Positions 106 through 6,334 of a stretch of DNA of 11,102 nucleotides are shown in pieces; position 1 is the stretch's first letter, and the number at the start of each line of letters is the position of its first letter. The position numbers and the translations under genes were made by a program. Below the pieces are notes generated by a model. That model had not been told where the DNA came from and made no database searches. It was given only the letters and a program-made list of their open reading frames with translations. The DNA comes from Pseudomonadota bacterium (GTDB lineage: Bacteria; Pseudomonadota; Gammaproteobacteria; Steroidobacterales; JBCCFQ01). Location: NCBI GenBank assembly GCA_039029655.1, contig JBCCFQ010000052.1:1-11102 (forward strand), given 5' to 3'.

Positions 106-180
106 GCTGCGGTAGCTCAATGACAGAGCATCGGATTGTCGATCCGAAAGATGTCGGTTCAAGTCCGATCCGCAGCGCCA
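106..180 (+). tRNA. tRNA-Asp (anticodon GTC), CCA encoded
   Basis: Folded by eye. The 7-bp acceptor GCTGCGG/CCGCAGC is perfect. D-stem is GCTC/GAGC. Anticodon stem TCGGA/TCCGA carries loop TTGTCGA. T-arm has a TTCAAGT loop. Discriminator G is followed by CCA. Confidence 0.85.
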
Positions 181-189
181 CACTTTTTT

Positions 190-265
190 GATCCGGTGGG
201 CGAATGGTTAAGCCACGAGGCCTTCAACCTCGTAATTGCAGGTTCAAATCCTGTTCGGATCGCCA
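190..265 (+). tRNA. tRNA-Glu (anticodon TTC), CCA encoded
   Basis: Acceptor GATCCGG/TCGGATC pairs with one G-T wobble. Anticodon stem CGAGG/CCTCG carries loop CCTTCAA. T-arm is GCAGG-TTCAAAT-CCTGT. Discriminator G is followed by CCA. Confidence 0.8.
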
Positions 266-291
266 CTTCAACTTGTCTTATGGAGGACATA

Positions 292-515
292 TGAACATCA
301 AAGATATTGTGAAACACAACACCGTTCGATTCGTTCGTTATCGCCAAGGAATCGCATACTACGGTGTCGACGTACCCAGCCAAGGCGCTTATGTATTTCC
401 AGTGCCACTAGAGGATATTGGCAGCGCCACCTTGGAACTAGAGGATAAAGCCATTCTGTTTATGCGTTATATCAAACGCGCACTGAGTGAAGGTTCGTTT
501 GTTCCGCTAACGTAA
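292..515 (+). CDS. hypothetical small protein (74 aa) embedded in the tRNA array
   Basis: ATG at 292 sits 5 nt after a strong Shine-Dalgarno GGAGGA (283-288). The ORF runs to TAA at 515 and ends 10 nt before tRNA-Ile. The upstream part of the tracked ORF 204..515 overlaps tRNA-Glu and is not credible. I recognise no homolog. Confidence 0.5.
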
Positions 516-525
516 GGTACCTTGT

Positions 526-601
526 AGACCGGTAGCTCAGCGAGTAGAGCGTGCGACTGATAATCGCGAGGTCGGCTGTGCAACTCAGCCTCGGTCTACC
601 A
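526..601 (+). tRNA. tRNA-Ile (anticodon GAT), CCA encoded
   Basis: Acceptor AGACCGG/TCGGTCT pairs fully. D-stem is GCTC/GAGC. Anticodon stem TGCGA/TCGCG carries loop CTGATAA, identical to E. coli tRNA-Ile. T-arm is GGCTG-TGCAACT-CAGCC. Discriminator A is followed by CCA. Confidence 0.8.
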
Positions 602-607
602 TTTTTT

Positions 608-685
608 CTGGGAGTAGCTCAGCTTGGTCAGAGTACTCGGTTTGGATCCGAGGGGTCGCTAGTTCGAATCTAGCCTTCCAGACCA
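608..685 (+). tRNA. tRNA-Pro (anticodon TGG), CCA encoded
   Basis: Acceptor CTGGGAG/CTTCCAG pairs fully. D-arm is GCTC...GAGT. Anticodon stem CTCGG/CCGAG carries loop TTTGGAT. T-arm is GCTAG-TTCGAAT-CTAGC. Discriminator A is followed by CCA. Confidence 0.85.
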
Positions 686-694
686 CACACTTTT

Positions 695-782
695 GGAGAC
701 TCGCAAGGTTGGCGTGCTTAGCCGGTTTGAACCCGGTGATGTCTTAACGGATGTGGGAGTTCGATCCTCTCAGTCTCCGCCA
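695..782 (+). tRNA. tRNA-Ser (anticodon TGA), type II with long variable arm, CCA encoded
   Basis: The gene is 88 nt. Acceptor GGAGACT/AGTCTCC is perfect. Anticodon stem GCCGG/CCGGT carries loop TTTGAAC. T-arm is GGGAG-TTCGATC-CTCTC. A ~17-nt variable region is present. I could not resolve the D-arm and variable-arm pairing by eye. Confidence 0.7.
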
Positions 783-789
783 AAACTAT

Positions 790-866
790 GGTGTTCGTAG
801 CTTAATTGGCAAAGCCCCAGTCTGTGAAGCTGGCAAATGTCGGTTCAAATCCGTCCGTTCACCCCA
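790..866 (+). tRNA. tRNA-His (anticodon GTG) with extra 5' G(-1); acceptor stem carries two T-T mismatches
   Basis: D-arm is GCTT-AATTGGCA-AAGC. Anticodon stem CCAGT/GCTGG carries loop CTGTGAA. The 3' end ACC-CCA and a G at -1 match the His tRNA pattern. Acceptor GTGTTCG/CGTTCAC has two T-T mispairs and the T-stem has one mismatch. The gene may be degenerate. Confidence 0.55.
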
Positions 867-874
867 ATTCACTA

Positions 875-962
875 GGAGAAGTGGCCGAGTGGCTAAAGGC
901 GCTCGTTTGCTAAACGAGAGAGGCATAGTCTCACCCAAGTTCGAATCTTGGCTTCTCCGCCA
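875..962 (+). tRNA. tRNA-Ser (anticodon GCT), type II, CCA encoded
   Basis: The gene is 88 nt. Acceptor GGAGAAG/CTTCTCC is perfect. D-stem is GCC/GGC. Anticodon stem CTCGT/ACGAG carries loop TTGCTAA. A long variable arm is present. T-arm is CCAAG-TTCGAAT-CTTGG. Discriminator G is followed by CCA. Confidence 0.85.
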
Positions 963-968
963 ACTTCA

Positions 969-1046
969 CTGTCCGTAGCTCAGTTGGATCAGAGCAGCTG
1001 GTTTCGACCCAGCCGGTCGGGAGTTCGAGTCTCTCCGGGCAGTCCA
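969..1046 (+). tRNA. tRNA-Arg (anticodon TCG), CCA encoded
   Basis: Acceptor CTGTCCG/CGGGCAG pairs with one wobble. D-stem is GCTC/GAGC. Anticodon stem GCTGG/CCAGC carries loop TTTCGAC. T-arm is GGGAG-TTCGAGT-CTCTC. Discriminator T is followed by CCA. Confidence 0.85.
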
Positions 1047-1054
1047 TTCAAAAT

Positions 1055-1130
1055 GCGGGCATAGCTCAATTGGCAGAGCACGACGGCGCCACCGTCGGGG
1101 TTGTGGTCTCAGCCTCCACTGCCCGCACCA
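1055..1130 (+). tRNA. tRNA-Gly (anticodon GCC), non-canonical T-loop and C33
   Basis: Acceptor GCGGGCA/TGCCCGC is perfect. D-stem is GCTC/GAGC. Anticodon stem CGACG/CGTCG carries loop GCGCCAC, with C at position 33 instead of U. The T-arm region GTGGT-CTCAGCC-TCCAC lacks the TTC motif. Discriminator A is followed by CCA. Confidence 0.55.
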
Positions 1131-1135
1131 ACTAC

Positions 1136-1206
1136 AGAGAGGGAGGTGGTCTCAGACAGGGCTCATAACCCCGTTTTCGCTGGTTCGAATCCAGCCCTCT
1201 CAACCA
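1136..1206 (+). tRNA. tRNA-Met-like (anticodon CAT) with initiator-type anticodon stem and truncated D-arm; possibly degenerate
   Basis: The anticodon arm GGGCTCATAACCC is identical to the E. coli initiator tRNA-fMet anticodon stem-loop, with its three G-C pairs. T-arm GCTGG-TTCGAAT-CCAGC is perfect. The acceptor shows 6/7 pairs with an A1-A72 mismatch and an ACCA end. Only 14 nt lie between the acceptor and the anticodon stem, so a normal D-arm is absent. A GTC-TCA-GAC mini-hairpin sits there instead. Confidence 0.4.
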
Positions 1207-1209
1207 GAT

Positions 1210-1286
1210 TGTCTGATAGCTCAGTTGGTCAGAGCGCTGCTTTTACACAGCAGAGGTCGTCGGTTCGAATCCGACTCGGACAACCA
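1210..1286 (+). tRNA. tRNA-Val (anticodon TAC), CCA encoded
   Basis: Acceptor TGTCTGA/TCGGACA pairs with one wobble. D-stem is GCTC/GAGC. Anticodon stem CTGCT/AGCAG carries loop TTTACAC. T-arm is GTCGG-TTCGAAT-CCGAC. Discriminator A is followed by CCA. Confidence 0.85.
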
Positions 1287-1394
1287 ATGTTGAGATGTTC
1301 ATAGCGTTCAGCGGTTCGGGTTCGGATCCCGTCTGGCGCACTTACGCTGTCATTGTACGGTGTGTACCGAACGCCCTTCACACTCAACCGCCAA

Positions 1395-1467
1395 TGGAAA
1401 TTAGCTCAGTTGGTTAGAGCATCAGACTGAAATTCTGAAGTCGCCAGTTCGATTCTGGCATTTCCCA
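1395..1467 (+). tRNA. tRNA-Phe (anticodon GAA), no encoded CCA
   Basis: D-arm is GCTC-AGTTGGTTA-GAGC. Anticodon stem TCAGA/TCTGA carries loop CTGAAAT. T-arm is GCCAG-TTCGATT-CTGGC. Acceptor GGAAAT/ATTTCC has a T-C mismatch at the 1:72 position. Discriminator A is followed by ACA rather than CCA. Confidence 0.65.
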
Positions 1468-3175: not shown

Positions 3176-3252
3176 ACGGCTGTAGCTCAGTGGATAGGAG
3201 CGCGACATTGCGAAAGTCGAGGTCACAAGTTCAACTCTTGTCAGCCGTACCA
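3176..3252 (+). tRNA. tRNA-Arg-like (anticodon probably GCG); A-A mismatch closes anticodon stem
   Basis: Acceptor ACGGCTG/CAGCCGT is perfect. D-stem is GCTC/GAGC. T-arm is ACAAG-TTCAACT-CTTGT. Discriminator A is followed by CCA. The anticodon stem CGAC(A)/(A)GTCG has an A-A mismatch next to the loop. This gives an effective 9-nt loop ATTGCGAAA, so the anticodon assignment (GCG) is tentative. Confidence 0.6.
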
Positions 3253-3259
3253 ATTCAAT

Positions 3260-3333
3260 TCGGTGCTGGTCTAAAGGCAGGACGCGAGACTTTGATTCTC
3301 GAGGTCGTGGTTCGAGTCCACGGCGCCGATCCA
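3260..3333 (+). tRNA. tRNA-Gln (anticodon TTG), CCA encoded
   Basis: Acceptor TCGGTGC/GCGCCGA pairs with one wobble. D-stem is GTCT/GGAC. Anticodon stem CGAGA/TCTCG carries loop CTTTGAT. T-arm is CGTGG-TTCGAGT-CCACG. Discriminator T is followed by CCA. Confidence 0.8.
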
Positions 3334-3351
3334 AATACGGGTCCAACTATT

Positions 3352-3484
3352 GGTGCCGTGGATCTCGATACTCAGCGATGTACTAAAGATCAATCCGCAC
3401 CTACCGTCCACAAAACAGATGCCATGCGGGCGGATTGGGTTGCAACCCTTGTTTAACTCAGTTCAATTCTGAGCGGCATCTCCA
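3352..3484 (+). tRNA. candidate interrupted tRNA (133 nt) carrying a ~58-nt insert; isotype undetermined
   Basis: The 3' part is a textbook tRNA end: T-arm CTCAG-TTCAATT-CTGAG, acceptor strand CGGCATC, discriminator T, CCA. The only upstream 7-mer that pairs 7/7 with this acceptor strand is GGTGCCG at 3352-3358, which includes one G-T. It is followed by a TG at positions 8 and 9. The conserved repeat element (3382-3439) lies between these ends. Removing it leaves 30+45=75 nt. I could not fold a canonical D-arm or anticodon arm by eye, so the call is tentative. Confidence 0.4.
3382..3439 (+). repeat. copy 1 of a repeated ~58-60-nt structured element (ACTAAAGATCAATCCGCACC ... GCGGGCGGATTGGG)
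   Basis: The 20-nt 5' block and 14-nt 3' block are identical to copy 2. An internal 8-bp inverted repeat CAATCCGC/GCGGATTG is separated by a ~30-nt partially conserved spacer (ACAAAA...ATG). Confidence 0.65.
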
Positions 3485-3486
3485 AC

Positions 3487-3562
3487 ACCCTCGTAGCTCA
3501 ATTGTCAGAGCACCGGGTTTTTACCCCGGTGGTTGTAAGTTCGAATCTTACCGGGGGTACCA
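3487..3562 (+). tRNA. tRNA-Lys (anticodon TTT), CCA encoded
   Basis: Acceptor ACCCTCG/CGGGGGT pairs with one wobble. D-arm is GCTC-AATTGTCA-GAGC. Anticodon stem CCGGG/CCCGG carries loop TTTTTAC. T-arm is GTAAG-TTCGAAT-CTTAC. Discriminator A is followed by CCA. Confidence 0.85.
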
Positions 3563-3601
3563 ATTCTCGTTGTCGCAAGGATTTAACGACTTATCTAATT
3601 C

Positions 3602-3655
3602 ACCCTTATAGCTCAATGGACGAGAGCGCCGAGTTTCTTGGCAAGGTTCTCGGCT
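3602..3655 (+). pseudogene. tRNA-like 5' fragment (acceptor strand + canonical D-arm + aberrant anticodon-like arm) with no matching 3' half
   Basis: ACCCTTA-TA-GCTC-AATGGACGA-GAGC is a canonical 5' acceptor strand and D-arm. It is followed by a 6-bp stem GCCGAG/CTCGGC enclosing a 15-16 nt loop instead of a 7-nt anticodon loop. No downstream T-arm or acceptor strand pairs with it. The repeat element copy 2 follows. Confidence 0.3.
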
Positions 3656-3677
3656 CATCAATCTTTTTTGAAGAAGC

Positions 3678-3737
3678 ACTAAAGATCAATCCGCACCCAG
3701 TGTTATGGAACAAAAATGACAAGGCGGGCGGATTGGG
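3678..3737 (+). repeat. copy 2 of the repeated ~58-60-nt structured element
   Basis: It shares ACTAAAGATCAATCCGCACC (3678-3697) and GCGGGCGGATTGGG (3724-3737) with copy 1. It has the same internal inverted repeat CAATCCGC/GCGGATTG. Confidence 0.65.
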
Positions 3738-3745
3738 GTACCAAC

Positions 3746-3822
3746 GCGGATCTGAAGGGAATGGCATACCTCGGTGGTTTAAACCCATTGGCTTCCCAGT
3801 TCGAATCTGGGGGTCCGCACCA
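3746..3822 (+). tRNA. non-canonical type-I tRNA with Leu anticodon TAA (short variable arm, 3-bp D-stem), CCA encoded
   Basis: Acceptor GCGGATC/GGTCCGC pairs with one wobble. T-arm CCCAG-TTCGAAT-CTGGG is perfect. Discriminator A is followed by CCA. Anticodon stem GGTGG/CCATT has two G-T pairs and carries loop TTTAAAC. The variable region is only 5 nt, although Leu tRNAs in bacteria and phages are normally type II. The gene shares the 5' motif CTGAAGGGAA..GCATACCT with the tRNA at 3947. Confidence 0.55.
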
Positions 3823-3824
3823 AA

Positions 3825-3904
3825 GCGCAGCTGACGGAAATTGGAAAAGCCTTTAGTACCTAAAACCTACTCGTTTCCGCGTTCGAATCGCGGGCTGCGC
3901 ACCA
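3825..3904 (+). tRNA. tRNA-like gene with perfect acceptor and T-arm but non-canonical D/anticodon arms (anticodon arm = 4-bp stem + 9-nt loop CCTAAAACC)
   Basis: Acceptor GCGCAGC/GCTGCGC is perfect. T-arm CCGCG-TTCGAAT-CGCGG is perfect. Discriminator A is followed by CCA. Only AGTA/TACT can close an anticodon-like loop, and that loop is 9 nt. I found no clean D-stem. Confidence 0.45.
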
Positions 3905-3946
3905 TTTTCAAATCGATACCCCACCAGGTTGCGGGTAACTCATCTT

Positions 3947-4024
3947 GGCCGTCTGAAGGGAACAGGCATACCTACCTGTCTTAGAAACGGGTGTTTCTCG
4001 GTTCGACTCCGAGGGCGGCTACCA
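3947..4024 (+). tRNA. non-canonical type-I tRNA with Leu anticodon TAG (short variable arm, 3-bp D-stem), CCA encoded
   Basis: Acceptor GGCCGTC/GGCGGCT pairs with two wobbles. T-arm CTCGG-TTCGACT-CCGAG is perfect. Discriminator A is followed by CCA. Anticodon stem CCTGT/ACGGG carries loop CTTAGAA. The variable region is 5 nt. The gene is a paralog of the tRNA at 3746. Confidence 0.55.
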
Positions 4025-4340
4025 AATTAGGGCACGTTGGCAAATGGACGCCGCCACTGAAAACGTTTAGTTGATAGTGGTCCGGATAAAACCGGTCTTG
4101 TTCTTAAGTAAATGCGAGAGCACGGTTGAAGATGGCAGGCGACTGCTCTGGGTAAAGGTTACTCGCTGGCGCCCGTTTCCAATCTCGCATTCTGCCGGTA
4201 GTAATGCATCGGTTACAGCGGTATGCGGGTTCGCCTGCGATGTGCAGGGATGCACAAGTGTCGCGTAGGACAGGATGTCCGAGAGCGACCCGTCTCCACC
4301 AAAATCTTACACAATCCACATGTTTTCCGGGGAAAGAAAA

Positions 4341-4907
4341 ATGACAATGAGAATTCTAAAATTAGATGTAGGCGGACGTCCTATCGCGTGGATTACACGG
4401 GAAGATGGGGCGCTGTTGTATTGCCGTGACCAGGTAGCATGGGAAGCGGGTGTTGAGGAAGCCATATTACGAGGCGGATACTCCCGTCGCACTGGACTGC
4501 GTTCAACGCTTCGGGTGAACTCAATTCTTGCCACAACGTCCGTGGACAAAGGCGCGGACGATTGGGCAGGTACCCCGGCACTGACCAACGCCCGTCTTTT
4601 TCGCAGAGATGATTACATGTGCCTGTACTGTGGCGAGGTATTGTCGCCGCGACTGCTTACACGTGATCACATCATTCCGGTCTCTGGCGGAGGCAAGGAT
4701 GAATGGGAAAACGTCGTGACGGCATGCCGACCCTGCAATCATCGCAAAGACAACGGTCGTCTTGAGGATATTGGAATGAGGCTACTGGCCGTTCCCTACG
4801 CACCCAATCGTGCGGAAGGACTAATTTTGGAAAATCGTCGTATCCTTAACGATCAAATGGAGTTTTTAAGGGCTCGAGTTGGCACAAAAAGTCGGCTGCG
4901 AGTTTAG
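4341..4907 (+). CDS. HNH-family endonuclease (N-terminal domain + C-terminal HNH nuclease motif)
   Basis: The ORF 4275..4907 has a likely start at ATG 4341, preceded by GGGGAAAG. In-frame ATGs at 4275 and 4320 are alternatives. The C-terminus carries a classic HNH signature: CLYCG...RDHIIPVSGGGKDEWENVVTACRPCNHRK. Stop is TAG at 4907. Confidence 0.85.
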   Translation: MTMRILKLDVGGRPIAWITREDGALLYCRDQVAWEAGVEEAILRGGYSRRTGLRSTLRVNSILATTSVDKGADDWAGTPALTNARLFRRDDYMCLYCGEVLSPRLLTRDHIIPVSGGGKDEWENVVTACRPCNHRKDNGRLEDIGMRLLAVPYAPNRAEGLILENRRILNDQMEFLRARVGTKSRLRV

Positions 4908-4924: not shown

Positions 4925-6334
4925 ATGTCTTACTTACAACAAGTTGAAAAAGTATCAGAAGCACACTACGTGTTGCCCAAGATTGGCGACATGCGTGTCG
5001 AGGTGCACGCCTATCTATCAGATACTTTGTTCGCACAAACCGATGAAGCCTTGTGGCGTCAAGCGGCACAAGCCGCCGCCTATCCTGGGATGCTGGGTCT
5101 GTATCTTATGCCGGATACTCACCTTGGCTATGGTATTCCCGTGGGTGGCGTGGCAGTTACCGAAGACGTGATCATTCAAGCCGGTAGTGGTTACGACATC
5201 TCTTGTGGTGTTGTCTATCTCAAAGTGCCAGGCCTAACGGCTGTAGACATTGCCGATTGGGACAAGCGTCGACGCTGGATTGATGATGTTGAGTTGCGAA
5301 TCGCGACCGGCGTCGGTAGCCACCGTCCCAAGCATATGCCCACCCTATCGGATAAGAAGATTGAGGATATCTTCCGATACGGTGCTCAGGCTATTGGAGT
5401 TCGTGCCGATGTTTGTGAACGTCAGTACATTCCAGTGGATGAATCTGCTCTTGATACCGATCGAATCAAACGGGCGCGAGATAAAGCAAACCCGCAAATT
5501 GGTTCGGTGGGTGGTGGTAACCACTTCGTTGAGATGCAGGTTGATGTCAACGACGGCTCAGTATGGGTGATGATTCATTGCGGCAGTCGCGGTTATGGTT
5601 GGCAAACGGCCAACCACTACTTCTATCAAGGTGCGGAACATCGCGGCCTAGCGAAGAACCGCCGTGAAGAGTCTTGGTTGCGGGCAGATGAACCCTTGGG
5701 TCGTGAATACTGGGCCCATCATAACTCTGCCGCCAACTATGCTGTGGCCAACCGACACATCATTGTGCGGGGTGTGCAAAAGGCTTTGGAGAACGTCTTC
5801 AATGCTAGGGGTGAAGTTTTCTATGAAATTTCACACAACCTGGTGCAAGAAGAAACCTTAGTTCTGCCCGATGGCACCACCAAGAAAGGTTTTGTTCATC
5901 GCAAAGGCGCTACCCGCGCGTTTCCGGCTGGACACCCAGACTTGGTGGGTACCAAATGGGAAAAAACAGGTCATCCATGCCTAGTACCTGGCTCCATGTT
6001 GGACGGTGCCGCTATTTTGTATCCGCTGAAAGGCGCGTACCAATCAGGTTGTTCGGTGAATCATGGTTCAGGCCGAGTCATGGCGCGTGGTAAGGCTAAG
6101 CGAGAGCTTGCCGACAAGCACGACGACATCGATGCCGAAATGCGTTATATCAAGCGCACACTAGGTGGTGTGGAGGTACAAGGCATTGTGGGTAACACCC
6201 GTCGTACACCGCTGGACGAATGCGGTCACGTTTATAAGGACTTAGATGAGGTGCTGCGAGTTCTGGAAACAGAAGGGATCGCCAAAGTAGCAAACCGGCT
6301 ATACCCGGTTGCCAACATCAAGGGCACCGACTAA
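4925..6334 (+). CDS. rtcB: RtcB-family RNA 3'-phosphate/2',3'-cyclic phosphate to 5'-OH ligase
   Basis: The ORF is 469 aa. The RBS GAGGAAG lies 4 nt before ATG 4925. Conserved RtcB metal and GTP-binding blocks are present: MPDTHLGYGIPVGGV, GSGYDISCGV, GGGNHFVE, HCGSRGYG, SHNL and HRKGATRA. Confidence 0.93.
   Translation: MSYLQQVEKVSEAHYVLPKIGDMRVEVHAYLSDTLFAQTDEALWRQAAQAAAYPGMLGLYLMPDTHLGYGIPVGGVAVTEDVIIQAGSGYDISCGVVYLKVPGLTAVDIADWDKRRRWIDDVELRIATGVGSHRPKHMPTLSDKKIEDIFRYGAQAIGVRADVCERQYIPVDESALDTDRIKRARDKANPQIGSVGGGNHFVEMQVDVNDGSVWVMIHCGSRGYGWQTANHYFYQGAEHRGLAKNRREESWLRADEPLGREYWAHHNSAANYAVANRHIIVRGVQKALENVFNARGEVFYEISHNLVQEETLVLPDGTTKKGFVHRKGATRAFPAGHPDLVGTKWEKTGHPCLVPGSMLDGAAILYPLKGAYQSGCSVNHGSGRVMARGKAKRELADKHDDIDAEMRYIKRTLGGVEVQGIVGNTRRTPLDECGHVYKDLDEVLRVLETEGIAKVANRLYPVANIKGTD

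What the first reader, a model, noticed from the sequence alone, without database searches (positions are those of the whole stretch)
3746..4024. Two paralogous type-I tRNAs carrying leucine anticodons (TAA and TAG) with short variable arms
The tRNAs at 3746-3822 and 3947-4024 have perfect T-arms, good acceptor stems, discriminator A73 (a Leu identity element) and CCA ends. They share a 5' motif CTGAAGGGAA..GCATACCT with a 3-bp D-stem. Their anticodon loops read TTTAAAC (TAA) and CTTAGAA (TAG). Each has only a 5-nt variable region, whereas bacterial and phage tRNA-Leu are type II with a long variable arm that is important for LeuRS recognition. They could be degenerate pseudo-tRNAs. They could instead be tRNAs charged by a non-Leu synthetase, which would cause recoding, or regulatory tRNA-like RNAs.
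Basis: seen in the sequence. Interest (0 to 1): 0.6.

Follow-up and report, generated by a model that had tools for sequence, protein, structure and literature searches.

The report
Short-armed leucine tRNAs in a tRNA array
The two odd leucine tRNAs are real, but they are ordinary members of a large, conserved family of short-armed leucine tRNAs carried by phages and by mobile bacterial tRNA arrays, not broken genes or a sign of genetic-code change.

Summary
Positions 3746-3822 and 3947-4024 are cloverleaf tRNAs with anticodons UAA and UAG, a 5-nt variable loop, A73 and an encoded CCA.

They are not oddities. A search on the D-arm and T-arm motif, with no constraint on the anticodon, found 262 relatives in viral contigs and bacterial genomes. 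Of the 262, 260 carry one of the six Leu anticodons, and all 124 unique viral copies have A73. Eighteen of 20 base pairs covary.

With the anticodon masked, the tRNA body resembles long-armed tRNA-Leu more than any other isotype. Ser and Tyr tRNAs in the same loci keep their long arms.

The same family is in 154 cultured phage records. The GenBank record for phage BF23 says its copy becomes an effective amber suppressor in E. coli.

The window is a long tRNA array with HNH and RtcB genes. It is syntenic with arrays in gammaproteobacterial chromosomes that hold a short-armed Leu(UAG)/Leu(UAA)/Leu(CAA) trio.

They are most likely genuine Leu-accepting tRNAs. Published E. coli work shows its LeuRS needs neither the long arm nor the anticodon. 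Pseudogene and recoding readings are not supported for these two genes. The gene between them (3825-3904, anticodon AAA) is a decayed or anticodon-shifted Leu(CAA) copy.

The parts
3746..3822 (+). Type-I (5-nt variable loop) tRNA-Leu, anticodon UAA, with A73 and encoded CCA
   Evidence: Called by ARAGORN. The sequence was parsed. It scores 68.2 bits on the family covariance model, but it was in the training set. Its orthologues are L150:4225, L209:2441 and L137:7455, and they show a compensatory T-stem change, A52-U62 versus G52-C62.
3947..4024 (+). Type-I tRNA-Leu, anticodon UAG, with A73 and encoded CCA
   Evidence: Called by ARAGORN. Rfam tRNA model 32.3 bits. Family covariance model 78.2 bits, training-set member. 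It is 88-95% identical to orthologues in L150, L209, L227, L234, L137, L197, L225 and L214. The extra nucleotide after A10 is A, C, G or U across these orthologues, which fits an unpaired bulge.
3825..3904 (+). Third member of the trio: an orthologue of type-I tRNA-Leu(CAA) that now reads anticodon AAA. It has a C31.C39 mismatch and a diverged D loop, so it is either decayed or anticodon-shifted.
   Evidence: ARAGORN calls it 'Phe(aaa)'. Its acceptor stem and T arm are identical to Leu(CAA) at L209:2520-2597, and its anticodon loop is CTAAAAC against CTCAAAC in the orthologues. It scores 51.1 bits on the family model and was not in the training set.
106..1467 (+). First block of the tRNA array: Asp, Glu, Ile, Pro, Ser, His, Ser, Arg, Val and Phe, plus uncalled Gly-like (1055-1130) and Met-like (1138-1206) genes
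   Evidence: The block is syntenic with L150, L137 and L197.
3176..3562 (+). Second block of the array: Arg(GCG), Gln(UUG), a Cys-like remnant and Lys(UUU)
4275..4907 (+). HNH endonuclease gene directly downstream of the Leu tRNAs
   Evidence: Pfam HNH_5 and HNH, E about 1e-13; PHROG HNH endonuclease. An HNH gene is a conserved neighbour of long tRNA arrays (PMC8421152).
4925..6334 (+). RtcB RNA ligase gene (tRNA repair)
   Evidence: Pfam RtcB, E = 2.8e-89. rtcB lies next to long tRNA arrays and is co-regulated with the array in Anabaena (PMC8421152). It is syntenic in L150, L209 and L227.

Best explanation
These are two functional isoacceptors, UAA (reading UUA/UUG) and UAG (reading CUN), of a widespread family of type-I, short-variable-loop tRNA-Leu. 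The family travels with phage tRNA clusters and with long, horizontally spread bacterial tRNA arrays (L-arrays).

Here the genes sit in a chromosomal L-array of a gammaproteobacterium related to Woeseiaceae and Ca. Rariloculaceae, next to HNH and RtcB genes. They are probably co-transcribed with the array, processed, and charged with leucine by the host LeuRS.

By analogy with E. coli, LeuRS would recognise A73 and the tertiary core (U8:A14, A15-U48, G18G19, A20a, and the 3-bp D stem closed by G13.A22). It would use neither the anticodon nor the long arm. The tRNAs then decode Leu codons as part of a back-up or auxiliary tRNA set.

Shown here: the cloverleaf, the covariation, the restriction to Leu anticodons, the Leu-like body, the conserved identity nucleotides, and the genomic context. 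Inferred: transcription, leucylation and ribosomal use in this organism.
For: 1. The D-arm/T-arm pattern searches did not constrain the anticodon. They returned 135 tRNAs in at least 120 viral contigs and 127 in 120 bacterial loci. Of these, 134 and 126 carry one of the six Leu anticodons. Chance would give about 9%.
2. A73 is present in 124 of 124 unique viral members. The variable loop is 5 nt in 113 and 6 nt in 11, and almost always ends in U48. U33 is present in 123 of 124.
3. RNAalifold predicts the short-loop cloverleaf. Eighteen of 20 pairs have compensatory changes, and 99.2% of cells are paired against 34-46% in the slid controls.
4. A profile of the family with the anticodon masked scores type-II tRNA-Leu at a median of 18.9 bits and other short Leu tRNAs at 23.7 bits. 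Every other isotype scores 11 bits or less.
5. In the same viral loci, Ser (117 of 121) and Tyr (46 of 49) keep long arms. Only the class-II isotype whose bacterial synthetase does not need the arm has lost it.
6. E. coli Leu identity rests on A73 plus A14, A15-U48, G18G19 and A20a. Variants lacking the long arm and the anticodon arm are still charged (PMC9976931). S. coelicolor LeuRS charges a natural type-I tRNA-Leu (PMC6614811).
7. Phage BF23 tRNAL1 is a member of this family. Its GenBank note reads 'replacement of the anticodon with CUA sequence converts this tRNA into effective amber suppressor'. That means it is expressed, charged independently of its anticodon, and used by E. coli ribosomes.
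8. Syntenic arrays in gammaproteobacterial chromosomes and MAGs keep a type-I UAG/UAA/CAA trio at 74-95% identity, with compensatory stem changes.
9. The array-plus-HNH-plus-RtcB context matches the L-array neighbourhood described in PMC8421152.
10. Neighbouring ORFs use all six Leu codons, including 25 TTA and 44 CTA out of 280.
Against: - Nothing here shows expression or charging in this organism.
- E. coli LeuRS failed to charge the S. coelicolor type-I tRNA-Leu(CAA) in vitro (PMC6614811). Charging of type-I Leu tRNAs is therefore not automatic and may depend on the LeuRS.
- The BF23 note does not say which amino acid is inserted.
- This array shows decay around the two genes: 3825-3904, 3601-3745 and 3418-3481.
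- The general Rfam tRNA model scores the two genes low or not at all.
- The first gene has two G.U pairs in its anticodon stem.
- The conservation of GGAA..GGCATAC within the collected family is built in by the search pattern.
Confidence: 0.8

Rival explanations
1. In this particular array the two genes are non-functional relics. They are pseudo-tRNAs that still look intact because decay is recent.
For: Neighbouring members have decayed. 3825-3904 has lost the CAA anticodon and the 31-39 pair. 3601-3745 is an Arg(UCU)-like gene interrupted by a repeat element. 3418-3481 is a Cys-like remnant. Rfam scores for the two genes are low. One cultured-phage record annotates the homologue as 'tRNA-Pseudo-TAG'.
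Against: All four stems are intact in both genes, and U33, A73, CCA, G18G19 and T54-A58 are present. Differences from orthologues are compensatory or G.U-compatible, for example 52-62 A-U versus G-C. The low Rfam score comes from the family-wide Leu-type D arm, not from damage, because undamaged relatives share it.
Confidence: 0.1
2. The tRNAs are charged by a synthetase other than LeuRS, so Leu codons are partly recoded.
For: They lack the class-II arm. E. coli LeuRS did not charge one natural type-I tRNA-Leu. UAA and CAA share A35 and A36 with the Phe anticodon.
Against: The family uses all six Leu anticodons and essentially nothing else. Those anticodons share only A35, so a synthetase that reads the anticodon would not accept them all. 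There is no G3.U70 (the AlaRS determinant) in any of the 77 aligned members, and no long arm for SerRS. The body is Leu-like. The family occurs across many phyla and many phages, including E. coli phages. Wholesale Leu recoding in all of them is implausible.
Confidence: 0.03
3. Their main role is outside translation. They would act as decoys or sponges for tRNA-cleaving toxins or defence nucleases, or as RtcB substrates or regulators, and decoding would be secondary.
For: They lie directly next to RtcB and HNH genes. Santamaria-Gomez et al. propose that array tRNAs may sequester toxin RNases, and they observed cleavage of array tRNAs (PMC8421152). A recent paper's abstract describes mycobacterial tRNA arrays as a putative anti-defence system (PMC12803027, abstract listed).
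Against: Strict conservation of Leu anticodons, A73, CCA and the full cloverleaf is what selection for charging and decoding produces. The BF23 homologue works in translation. A decoy role would not explain loss of the arm.
Confidence: 0.1

Closest known systems
Phage BF23 tRNAL1 (GenBank AJ604530.1) and its homologues in T5-like phages such as Salmonella phage S124 (Epseptimavirus) and in other cultured phages
   Same: It belongs to the same sequence family. It has U8 G9, a 3-bp D stem closed by G13.A22, a GGAAYUGGCAUAC D loop, a 5-nt variable loop ending in U48, A73, CCA and a Leu anticodon. It also lies in a tRNA cluster next to HNH genes.
   Different: BF23 and most of the family lack the extra bulged nucleotide after A10 that marks the window's subfamily (TGA-N-GGGAA..ACCT). 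The BF23 copy is on a lytic phage genome, not in a bacterial chromosomal array. It has a depositor's note of suppressor activity; the window genes have no experimental data.
Streptomyces coelicolor type-I tRNA-Leu(CAA) (Fan et al. 2019, PMC6614811)
   Same: It is a bacterial tRNA with a Leu anticodon and a 5-nt variable loop, and it coexists with type-II tRNA-Leu. It is leucylated by the single LeuRS, and U8:A14 is important.
   Different: Its variable loop is A44 C45 A46 G47 C48, with C48 rather than U48. That resembles the second short-Leu family seen here, which has variable loops such as AAGTG and CAGTG, more than it resembles the window's family. It is reported as an indispensable housekeeping gene, not part of an accessory array. 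E. coli LeuRS does not charge it.
Canonical bacterial type-II tRNA-Leu (E. coli) and its arm-less 'minimalist' derivatives (Larkin 2002; Asahara 1993, 1998; via PMC9976931)
   Same: It shares A73, U8 G9, the 3-bp D stem with G13.A22, A14, A15-U48, G18G19 and A20a. Type-II Leu is the best-scoring other isotype for the family profile. A 90-nt type-II Leu with the same GGAATTGGCATAC D loop lies in the same array in L162.
   Different: The window genes have no long variable arm, with 5 nt in place of about 13-17. Position 37 is A in 105 of 124 family members, including UAG isoacceptors. From my own recollection, not checked here, CUN-reading E. coli tRNA-Leu carry G37.
[quoted passage not shown] 2021, PMC8421152; Tran et al. 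2015, PMC4758250)
   Same: It is a dense same-strand array of about 20 tRNA genes covering most amino acids, with some degenerate members and with HNH and rtcB neighbours. The distribution across phyla is patchy. Nostoc arrays carry a family member, Leu(CAG).
   Different: Neither paper's main text mentions short-armed tRNA-Leu. Regulation by translational stress is not testable here.
Animal mitochondrial tRNA-Leu
   Same: It is a type-I tRNA-Leu with A73 and A14 as identity elements (PMC9976931).
   Different: It is unrelated in sequence, has a fragile structure and uses a dedicated mitochondrial LeuRS.

Membership tests
Leucine-accepting bacterial tRNA (E. coli-type identity set) | Anticodon NAA or NAG | tested here: met
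   The anticodons are UAA and UAG. 260 of 262 relatives carry a Leu anticodon.
Leucine-accepting bacterial tRNA (E. coli-type identity set) | Discriminator A73 | tested here: met
   Both genes have A73, as do 124 of 124 unique viral family members. This position was not in the search pattern.
Leucine-accepting bacterial tRNA (E. coli-type identity set) | Tertiary core: U8:A14, A15-U48, G18G19, A20a, U54-A58 | tested here: met
   All are present by sequence in both genes. U48 and U8 are conserved in the family without being imposed by the pattern. The three-dimensional fold itself was not tested.
Leucine-accepting bacterial tRNA (E. coli-type identity set) | Long (type-II) variable arm | tested here: not met
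   The variable loops are 5 nt. The literature says the arm is dispensable for E. coli LeuRS (PMC9976931).
Leucine-accepting bacterial tRNA (E. coli-type identity set) | Charged with leucine by LeuRS | not testable with these tools
   Only indirect evidence exists: the BF23 homologue is an effective suppressor after its anticodon is replaced.
Short-armed tRNA-Leu family of phage clusters and L-arrays (BF23 tRNAL1 type) | U8 G9 with a 3-bp D stem closed by G13.A22 and a GGAA(N1-3)GGCAUAC D loop | tested here: met
   The window's subfamily has one extra bulged nucleotide after A10.
Short-armed tRNA-Leu family of phage clusters and L-arrays (BF23 tRNAL1 type) | Cloverleaf with a 5-6-nt variable loop, supported by covariation | tested here: met
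   Family covariance model scores are 78.2 and 68.2 bits (both genes are training members).
L-array (long accessory tRNA gene array) | Dense same-strand cluster of many tRNA genes. Tran et al. define it as at least 20 genes at 2 or more per kb. | tested here: inconclusive
   ARAGORN genes, and there are at least 4 uncalled tRNA-like genes, within 4 kb. The cluster is interrupted by one SPFH gene and starts at the window edge. Syntenic arrays hold 22-23 tRNAs in 8 kb.
L-array (long accessory tRNA gene array) | HNH endonuclease and rtcB in the neighbourhood | tested here: met
   compared with PMC8421152.
L-array (long accessory tRNA gene array) | Redundant with a housekeeping tRNA set, and induced by translational stress | not testable with these tools
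   The rest of the host genome is not available, and there are no expression data.
Pseudo-tRNA | Broken stems or loss of universal nucleotides | tested here: not met
   3746-3822 and 3947-4024 are intact. The feature is partly met only by the neighbour at 3825-3904.

The most novel reading that the evidence does not exclude
Loss of the long arm may be an adaptation of mobile tRNA sets, in two possible ways. First, a type-I tRNA-Leu keeps the elements known to be used by E. coli LeuRS (A73 plus the tertiary core) but cannot be mistaken for tRNA-Ser or tRNA-Tyr, so it would be safe to carry between distant hosts. Second, it might escape host or competitor nucleases that recognise class-II tRNA-Leu. 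In addition, because bacterial LeuRS (as characterised in E. coli) ignores the anticodon, the AAA-anticodon copy at 3825-3904 could be a Leu-charged tRNA that reads Phe UUU codons, either as a natural mistranslator or as a decoy.
Probability: 0.12. Interest if true: 0.7.

Novelty: new member of a known kind. Interest (0 to 1): 0.35.

Why it matters
For this window, the result removes a false alarm. There is no recoding and these two genes are not pseudogenes. They are part of an accessory tRNA array with tRNA-repair neighbours.

More broadly, Fan et al. (2019) treat type-I tRNA-Leu in bacteria as a rarity known from Streptomyces coelicolor. The searches here show hundreds of such genes covering all six Leu anticodons. 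They occur in phages, including 154 cultured phage records (mostly coliphages and Salmonella phages), in mobile tRNA arrays, and apparently as native genes in Acidobacteriota, Tumebacillus and Clostridia.

I found no paper in the searchable library that discusses this. The T5-like coliphages offer an easy experimental system for a clear question: how does a LeuRS that rejects one type-I tRNA-Leu accept another, and why do mobile tRNA sets prefer the armless form?

Tried and rejected
- Megablast of the whole window against cultured phages found nothing. The window turned out to be closest to gammaproteobacterial chromosomal arrays.
- The general Rfam tRNA model is a poor detector here. It gave 32.3 bits for one gene and nothing for the other. 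I therefore did not use it to judge whether the genes are real.
- Single-sequence MFE folding was uninformative, with z-scores of -0.8 and -1.0 and no cloverleaf. Comparative folding was decisive instead.
- A missed long variable arm is ruled out. [quoted passage not shown]
- Exact-protein look-ups of RtcB and the E1-like protein, meant to recover the source contig, found nothing on record.
They found no paper on short-armed tRNA-Leu in phages or arrays. The original BF23 and T5 suppressor papers are not in the library, so that evidence rests on the GenBank note.
- I considered that the family could derive from another isotype by an anticodon shift. I rejected this because the masked-anticodon profile is closest to type-II Leu, and because a type-II Leu with the same D loop exists in L162.
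- I did not run the protein-homology, structure-prediction or metagenome scans. They would not bear on the question.

Full report
**1. The observation**

The window starts with a dense tRNA array on the + strand. ARAGORN genes. Two of them are tRNA-Leu(taa) at 3746-3822 and tRNA-Leu(tag) at 3947-4024.

Read directly from the sequence, the first gene is:
GCGGAUC UG A-A-GG G AAUGGCAU A CCU C GGUGG UUUAAAC CCAUU GGCUU CCCAG UUCGAAU CUGGG GGUCCGC A CCA

The second gene is:
GGCCGUC UG A-A-GG G AACAGGCAU A CCU A CCUGU CUUAGAA ACGGG UGUUU CUCGG UUCGACU CCGAG GGCGGCU A CCA

[quoted passage not shown] No long arm can be hidden there.

The general Rfam tRNA model gives only 32.3 bits to the second gene and does not report the first. 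Single-sequence folding is uninformative. The case for reality therefore rests on comparison with relatives.

**2. A large conserved family**

The shared motif CTGAAGGGAA(N1-2)GGCATACCT occurs in 8 IMG/VR contigs. Each hit is a 76-78-nt tRNA with a Leu anticodon.

I then used a looser pattern, GGAA(N1-3)GGCATAC(N26-31)GGTTCRA. It fixes only parts of the D loop and T arm and says nothing about the anticodon. ARAGORN found 135 tRNAs with this D arm in the fetched loci. Of these, 134 have Leu anticodons: tag 64, caa 39, taa 15, gag 9, cag 4 and aag 3.

The same pattern, slightly extended, hit at least 120 bacterial genome loci. There, 126 of 127 tRNAs have Leu anticodons.

Among the 124 unique viral sequences:
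- A73 is invariant.
- The variable loop is 5 nt in 113 and 6 nt in 11, and nearly always ends in U48.
- U33 is present in 123.

On a 77-sequence alignment, RNAalifold independently returns the cloverleaf with a short variable loop. Eighteen of 20 pairs show double compensatory changes. Of all cells, 99.2% are paired, against 34-46% when partners are slid by 1-3 columns. The covariation score is 1.03, against 0.12-0.20 for the slid controls.

The conservation of GGAA..GGCATAC is imposed by the pattern and proves nothing. A73, U8, U48, the stems and the anticodon set were not imposed.

**3. The body is Leu-like**

The D arm has the architecture of E. coli tRNA-Leu: U8 G9, three base pairs closed by G13.A22, then A14 A15, G18 G19 and A20a.

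I built an HMM of the family with the anticodon triplet removed and scored all other tRNAs from the fetched loci:
- Other short Leu tRNAs: median 23.7 bits.
- Long-armed Leu tRNAs: median 18.9 bits.
- Every other isotype: 11 bits or less.

A 90-nt type-II Leu(gag) with the same GGAATTGGCATAC D loop lies in one array, L162. That links the short and long forms.

In the viral loci, Ser tRNAs (117 of 121) and Tyr tRNAs (46 of 49) keep long arms, while Leu is short in 187 of 252. The Leu ratio is biased by how the loci were chosen. The Ser and Tyr figures are not.

A second family of short Leu-anticodon tRNAs, with a different D arm (UAGCCCAAYUGGCAGAGGC), also occurs in these loci.

**4. Where the window comes from**

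Blastn of the window against all fetched loci shows synteny at 74-80% nucleotide identity with arrays in gammaproteobacterial assemblies:
- L150
- L209
- L227
- L234 (Woeseiaceae)
- L137 and L197 (two roughly 6-Mb Ca. Rariloculaceae chromosomes)
- L225 and L214

L150, L209, L227 and L234 share tRNA genes and the SPFH gene with the window, and all four share HNH sequence. RtcB sequence is shared by L150, L209 and L227 only. L137, L197, L225 and L214 match only in the tRNA genes.

In the fullest of these relatives, L137, L209 and L154, the array ends with a trio, Leu(UAG)-Leu(UAA)-Leu(CAA), all short-armed. L214, L197 and L227 show only two of the three, and in L197 and L234 the first gene reads CAG. 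The fetched pieces of L150 and L225 show fewer.

The window's two genes are 85-95% identical to their orthologues in the closest arrays and 81-89% in the more distant ones. The differences are compensatory. For example, pair 52-62 is A-U here and G-C in L150, and pair 50-64 is U-A in most orthologues and C-G in L225.

The extra nucleotide after A10 is A, C, G or U in different orthologues, while its neighbours are fixed. That is what an unpaired bulge looks like.

Pfam and PHROGs identify the downstream genes as an HNH endonuclease (4275-4907) and RtcB (4925-6334).

This is the neighbourhood described for long tRNA arrays (L-arrays). These arrays spread horizontally, are silent in normal growth, and in Anabaena are induced together with an HNH gene and rtcB under translational stress (PMC8421152). 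Neither that paper nor Tran et al. 2015 (PMC4758250) mentions the short arm of the Leu tRNAs.

**5. Functional evidence from relatives and from the literature**

The family is present in cultured phages, where it is usually annotated simply as tRNA-Leu:
- Salmonella phage S124, Leu-TAG.
- Xanthomonas phage X1, Leu-CAG, next to a long-armed Leu-UAG.
- Gordonia phage Fryberger.
- In all, 154 phage records cover at least 80% of the S124 gene, mostly E. coli and Salmonella T5-like phages. One record labels it 'tRNA-Pseudo-TAG'.

T5 itself carries an 85-nt Leu(UAG) with a 13-nt variable region at the syntenic site.

The GenBank record for the BF23 tRNA region (AJ604530.1) annotates its 77-nt short-armed tRNAL1 with this note: 'replacement of the anticodon with CUA sequence converts this tRNA into effective amber suppressor'. 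By the depositors' account, then, a member of this family is made, charged without regard to its anticodon, and used by E. coli ribosomes. The inserted amino acid is not stated.

Established knowledge fits this:
- In E. coli, Leu identity rests on A73 and the tertiary core (A14, A15-U48, G18G19, A20a). It does not rest on the anticodon or the long arm, and arm-less minimal tRNA-Leu are still charged (PMC9976931).
- S. coelicolor has a natural type-I tRNA-Leu(CAA) charged by its LeuRS (PMC6614811).
- Among bacterial synthetases that ignore the anticodon, AlaRS needs G3.U70, which none of the 77 aligned members has, and SerRS needs the long arm. That leaves LeuRS.

One caution from the same paper: E. 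coli LeuRS did not charge the S. coelicolor type-I tRNA. That tRNA has C48 and a different variable loop. Charging of the window's tRNAs by their host enzyme is therefore an inference.

**6. Verdict on the interpretation**

The structural call is right. The suggestions of pseudogenes, recoding or regulatory RNAs are not supported for these two genes. The premise that the long arm is needed by bacterial LeuRS is not correct.

The most likely mechanism is ordinary. The two genes are transcribed with the array, processed, leucylated by LeuRS through A73 and the core, and used to read UUR and CUN codons. The neighbouring ORFs use both codon sets freely. No promoter-like or terminator-like site separates the genes. 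That is compatible with co-transcription but is only weak evidence.

A non-translational role as a nuclease sponge, as speculated for L-arrays, cannot be excluded as an addition.

**7. The gene between them**

ARAGORN's 'tRNA-Phe(aaa)' at 3825-3904 has the same acceptor stem and T arm as Leu(CAA) of L209. Its anticodon loop is CTAAAAC where the orthologues have CTCAAAC. It also has a C31.C39 mismatch, an extra base near position 26 and a diverged D loop. It scores 51.1 bits on the family model, only slightly above unrelated tRNAs, which score up to 47.2.

It is either a decaying Leu(CAA) or an anticodon-shifted copy. If it were still charged by an anticodon-blind LeuRS, it would read a Phe codon.

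**8. Novelty and score**

The two genes are new members of a known kind. The kind has been annotated in GenBank for years, has a depositor's note of function in BF23, and has an experimentally studied analogue in S. coelicolor.

What seems under-appreciated is how common the armless form is. Fan et al. (2019) call it rare. I found no discussion of its abundance in the searchable library, though most subscription-journal literature is not covered.

Interest for this finding is modest, at 0.35.

Noticed in passing
window 3825-3904: ARAGORN's 'tRNA-Phe(aaa)' is an orthologue of type-I tRNA-Leu(CAA). Its acceptor stem and T arm are identical to L209:2520-2597. It has C34->A, a C31.C39 mismatch and a diverged D loop. 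It is either decaying or a Leu-type body carrying a Phe anticodon.
   Followed up: partly
window 3601-3745: This is a strongly structured stretch (MFE z = -3.9) that no tRNA finder calls. Its 5' half matches tRNA-Arg(UCU) of the syntenic arrays, but the anticodon loop is enlarged (TTTCTTGGCAAGGTT). The T-arm position is occupied by a repeat element, followed by a matching acceptor 3' strand and ACCA.
   Followed up: partly
window 3377-3439 and 3673-3737: Two copies of a roughly 63-nt element (GA.G.ACTAAAGATCAATCCGCACC ... GCGGGCGGATTGGG) at the same internal spacing. Each lies inside a degenerate tRNA gene: the Cys-like remnant that ends at 3481, and the Arg(UCU)-like gene. It could be a small insertion element that targets tRNA genes.
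   Followed up: partly
window 3487-3562: The gene called tRNA-Lys(UUU) resembles the Arg(UCU) genes of the syntenic arrays in its acceptor stem, D arm and anticodon stem, and it lies where they lie, just upstream of the Leu genes. The Lys(UUU) gene that relatives carry after Arg(UCG) is missing here. This may be an Arg-to-Lys anticodon shift (C35->U).
   Followed up: no
window 1055-1130 and 1138-1206: Two tRNA-like genes that ARAGORN and Rfam both miss. One is a Gly(GCC) with a non-canonical T loop (UCUCAGC in place of UUCRANY), which is conserved in relatives. The other is a Met(CAU)-like gene with an initiator-type GGG/CCC anticodon stem and an aberrant D arm.
   Followed up: no
L133, L141, L142, L151, L156 and about 25 other Acidobacteriota loci; L167 and L242 (Tumebacillus avium chromosome); L139, L145, L148 and L160 (Clostridia): Nearly identical short-armed tRNA-Leu(CAA) genes occur in many Acidobacteriota assemblies, mostly at loci with only 4-6 tRNAs but some inside dense arrays. 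They also occur in ordinary tRNA clusters of Tumebacillus. Short-armed Leu(CAG) and Leu(GAG) genes occur as single genes in Clostridia. Type-I tRNA-Leu may be the native housekeeping form in several bacterial lineages, not only in S. coelicolor.
   Followed up: no
L137:7191-7283, L197:4025-4119, L214:6928-7022, L225:4994-5086: The syntenic arrays carry a 93-95-nt 'tRNA-Ile(UAU)' with an insertion of about 18 nt (..GCGCCAGATAAGCGGCAG..) in the variable region. L150 and L209 carry a 79-nt version without it.
   Followed up: no
family-wide: Position 37 is A in 105 of 124 family members, including most UAG isoacceptors (loop CUUAGAA). From memory, CUN-reading bacterial tRNA-Leu normally have G37 (m1G). 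If so, these tRNAs would not depend on TrmD.
   Followed up: no
L132 (phage T5, 28-46 kb) and L253 (BF23): The T5 and BF23 GenBank records annotate several 'tRNA-like stable RNAs with unknown functions' (RNA1, RNA2, RNA3) among the tRNA genes. These recall the degenerate tRNA-like genes seen in this window's array.
   Followed up: no
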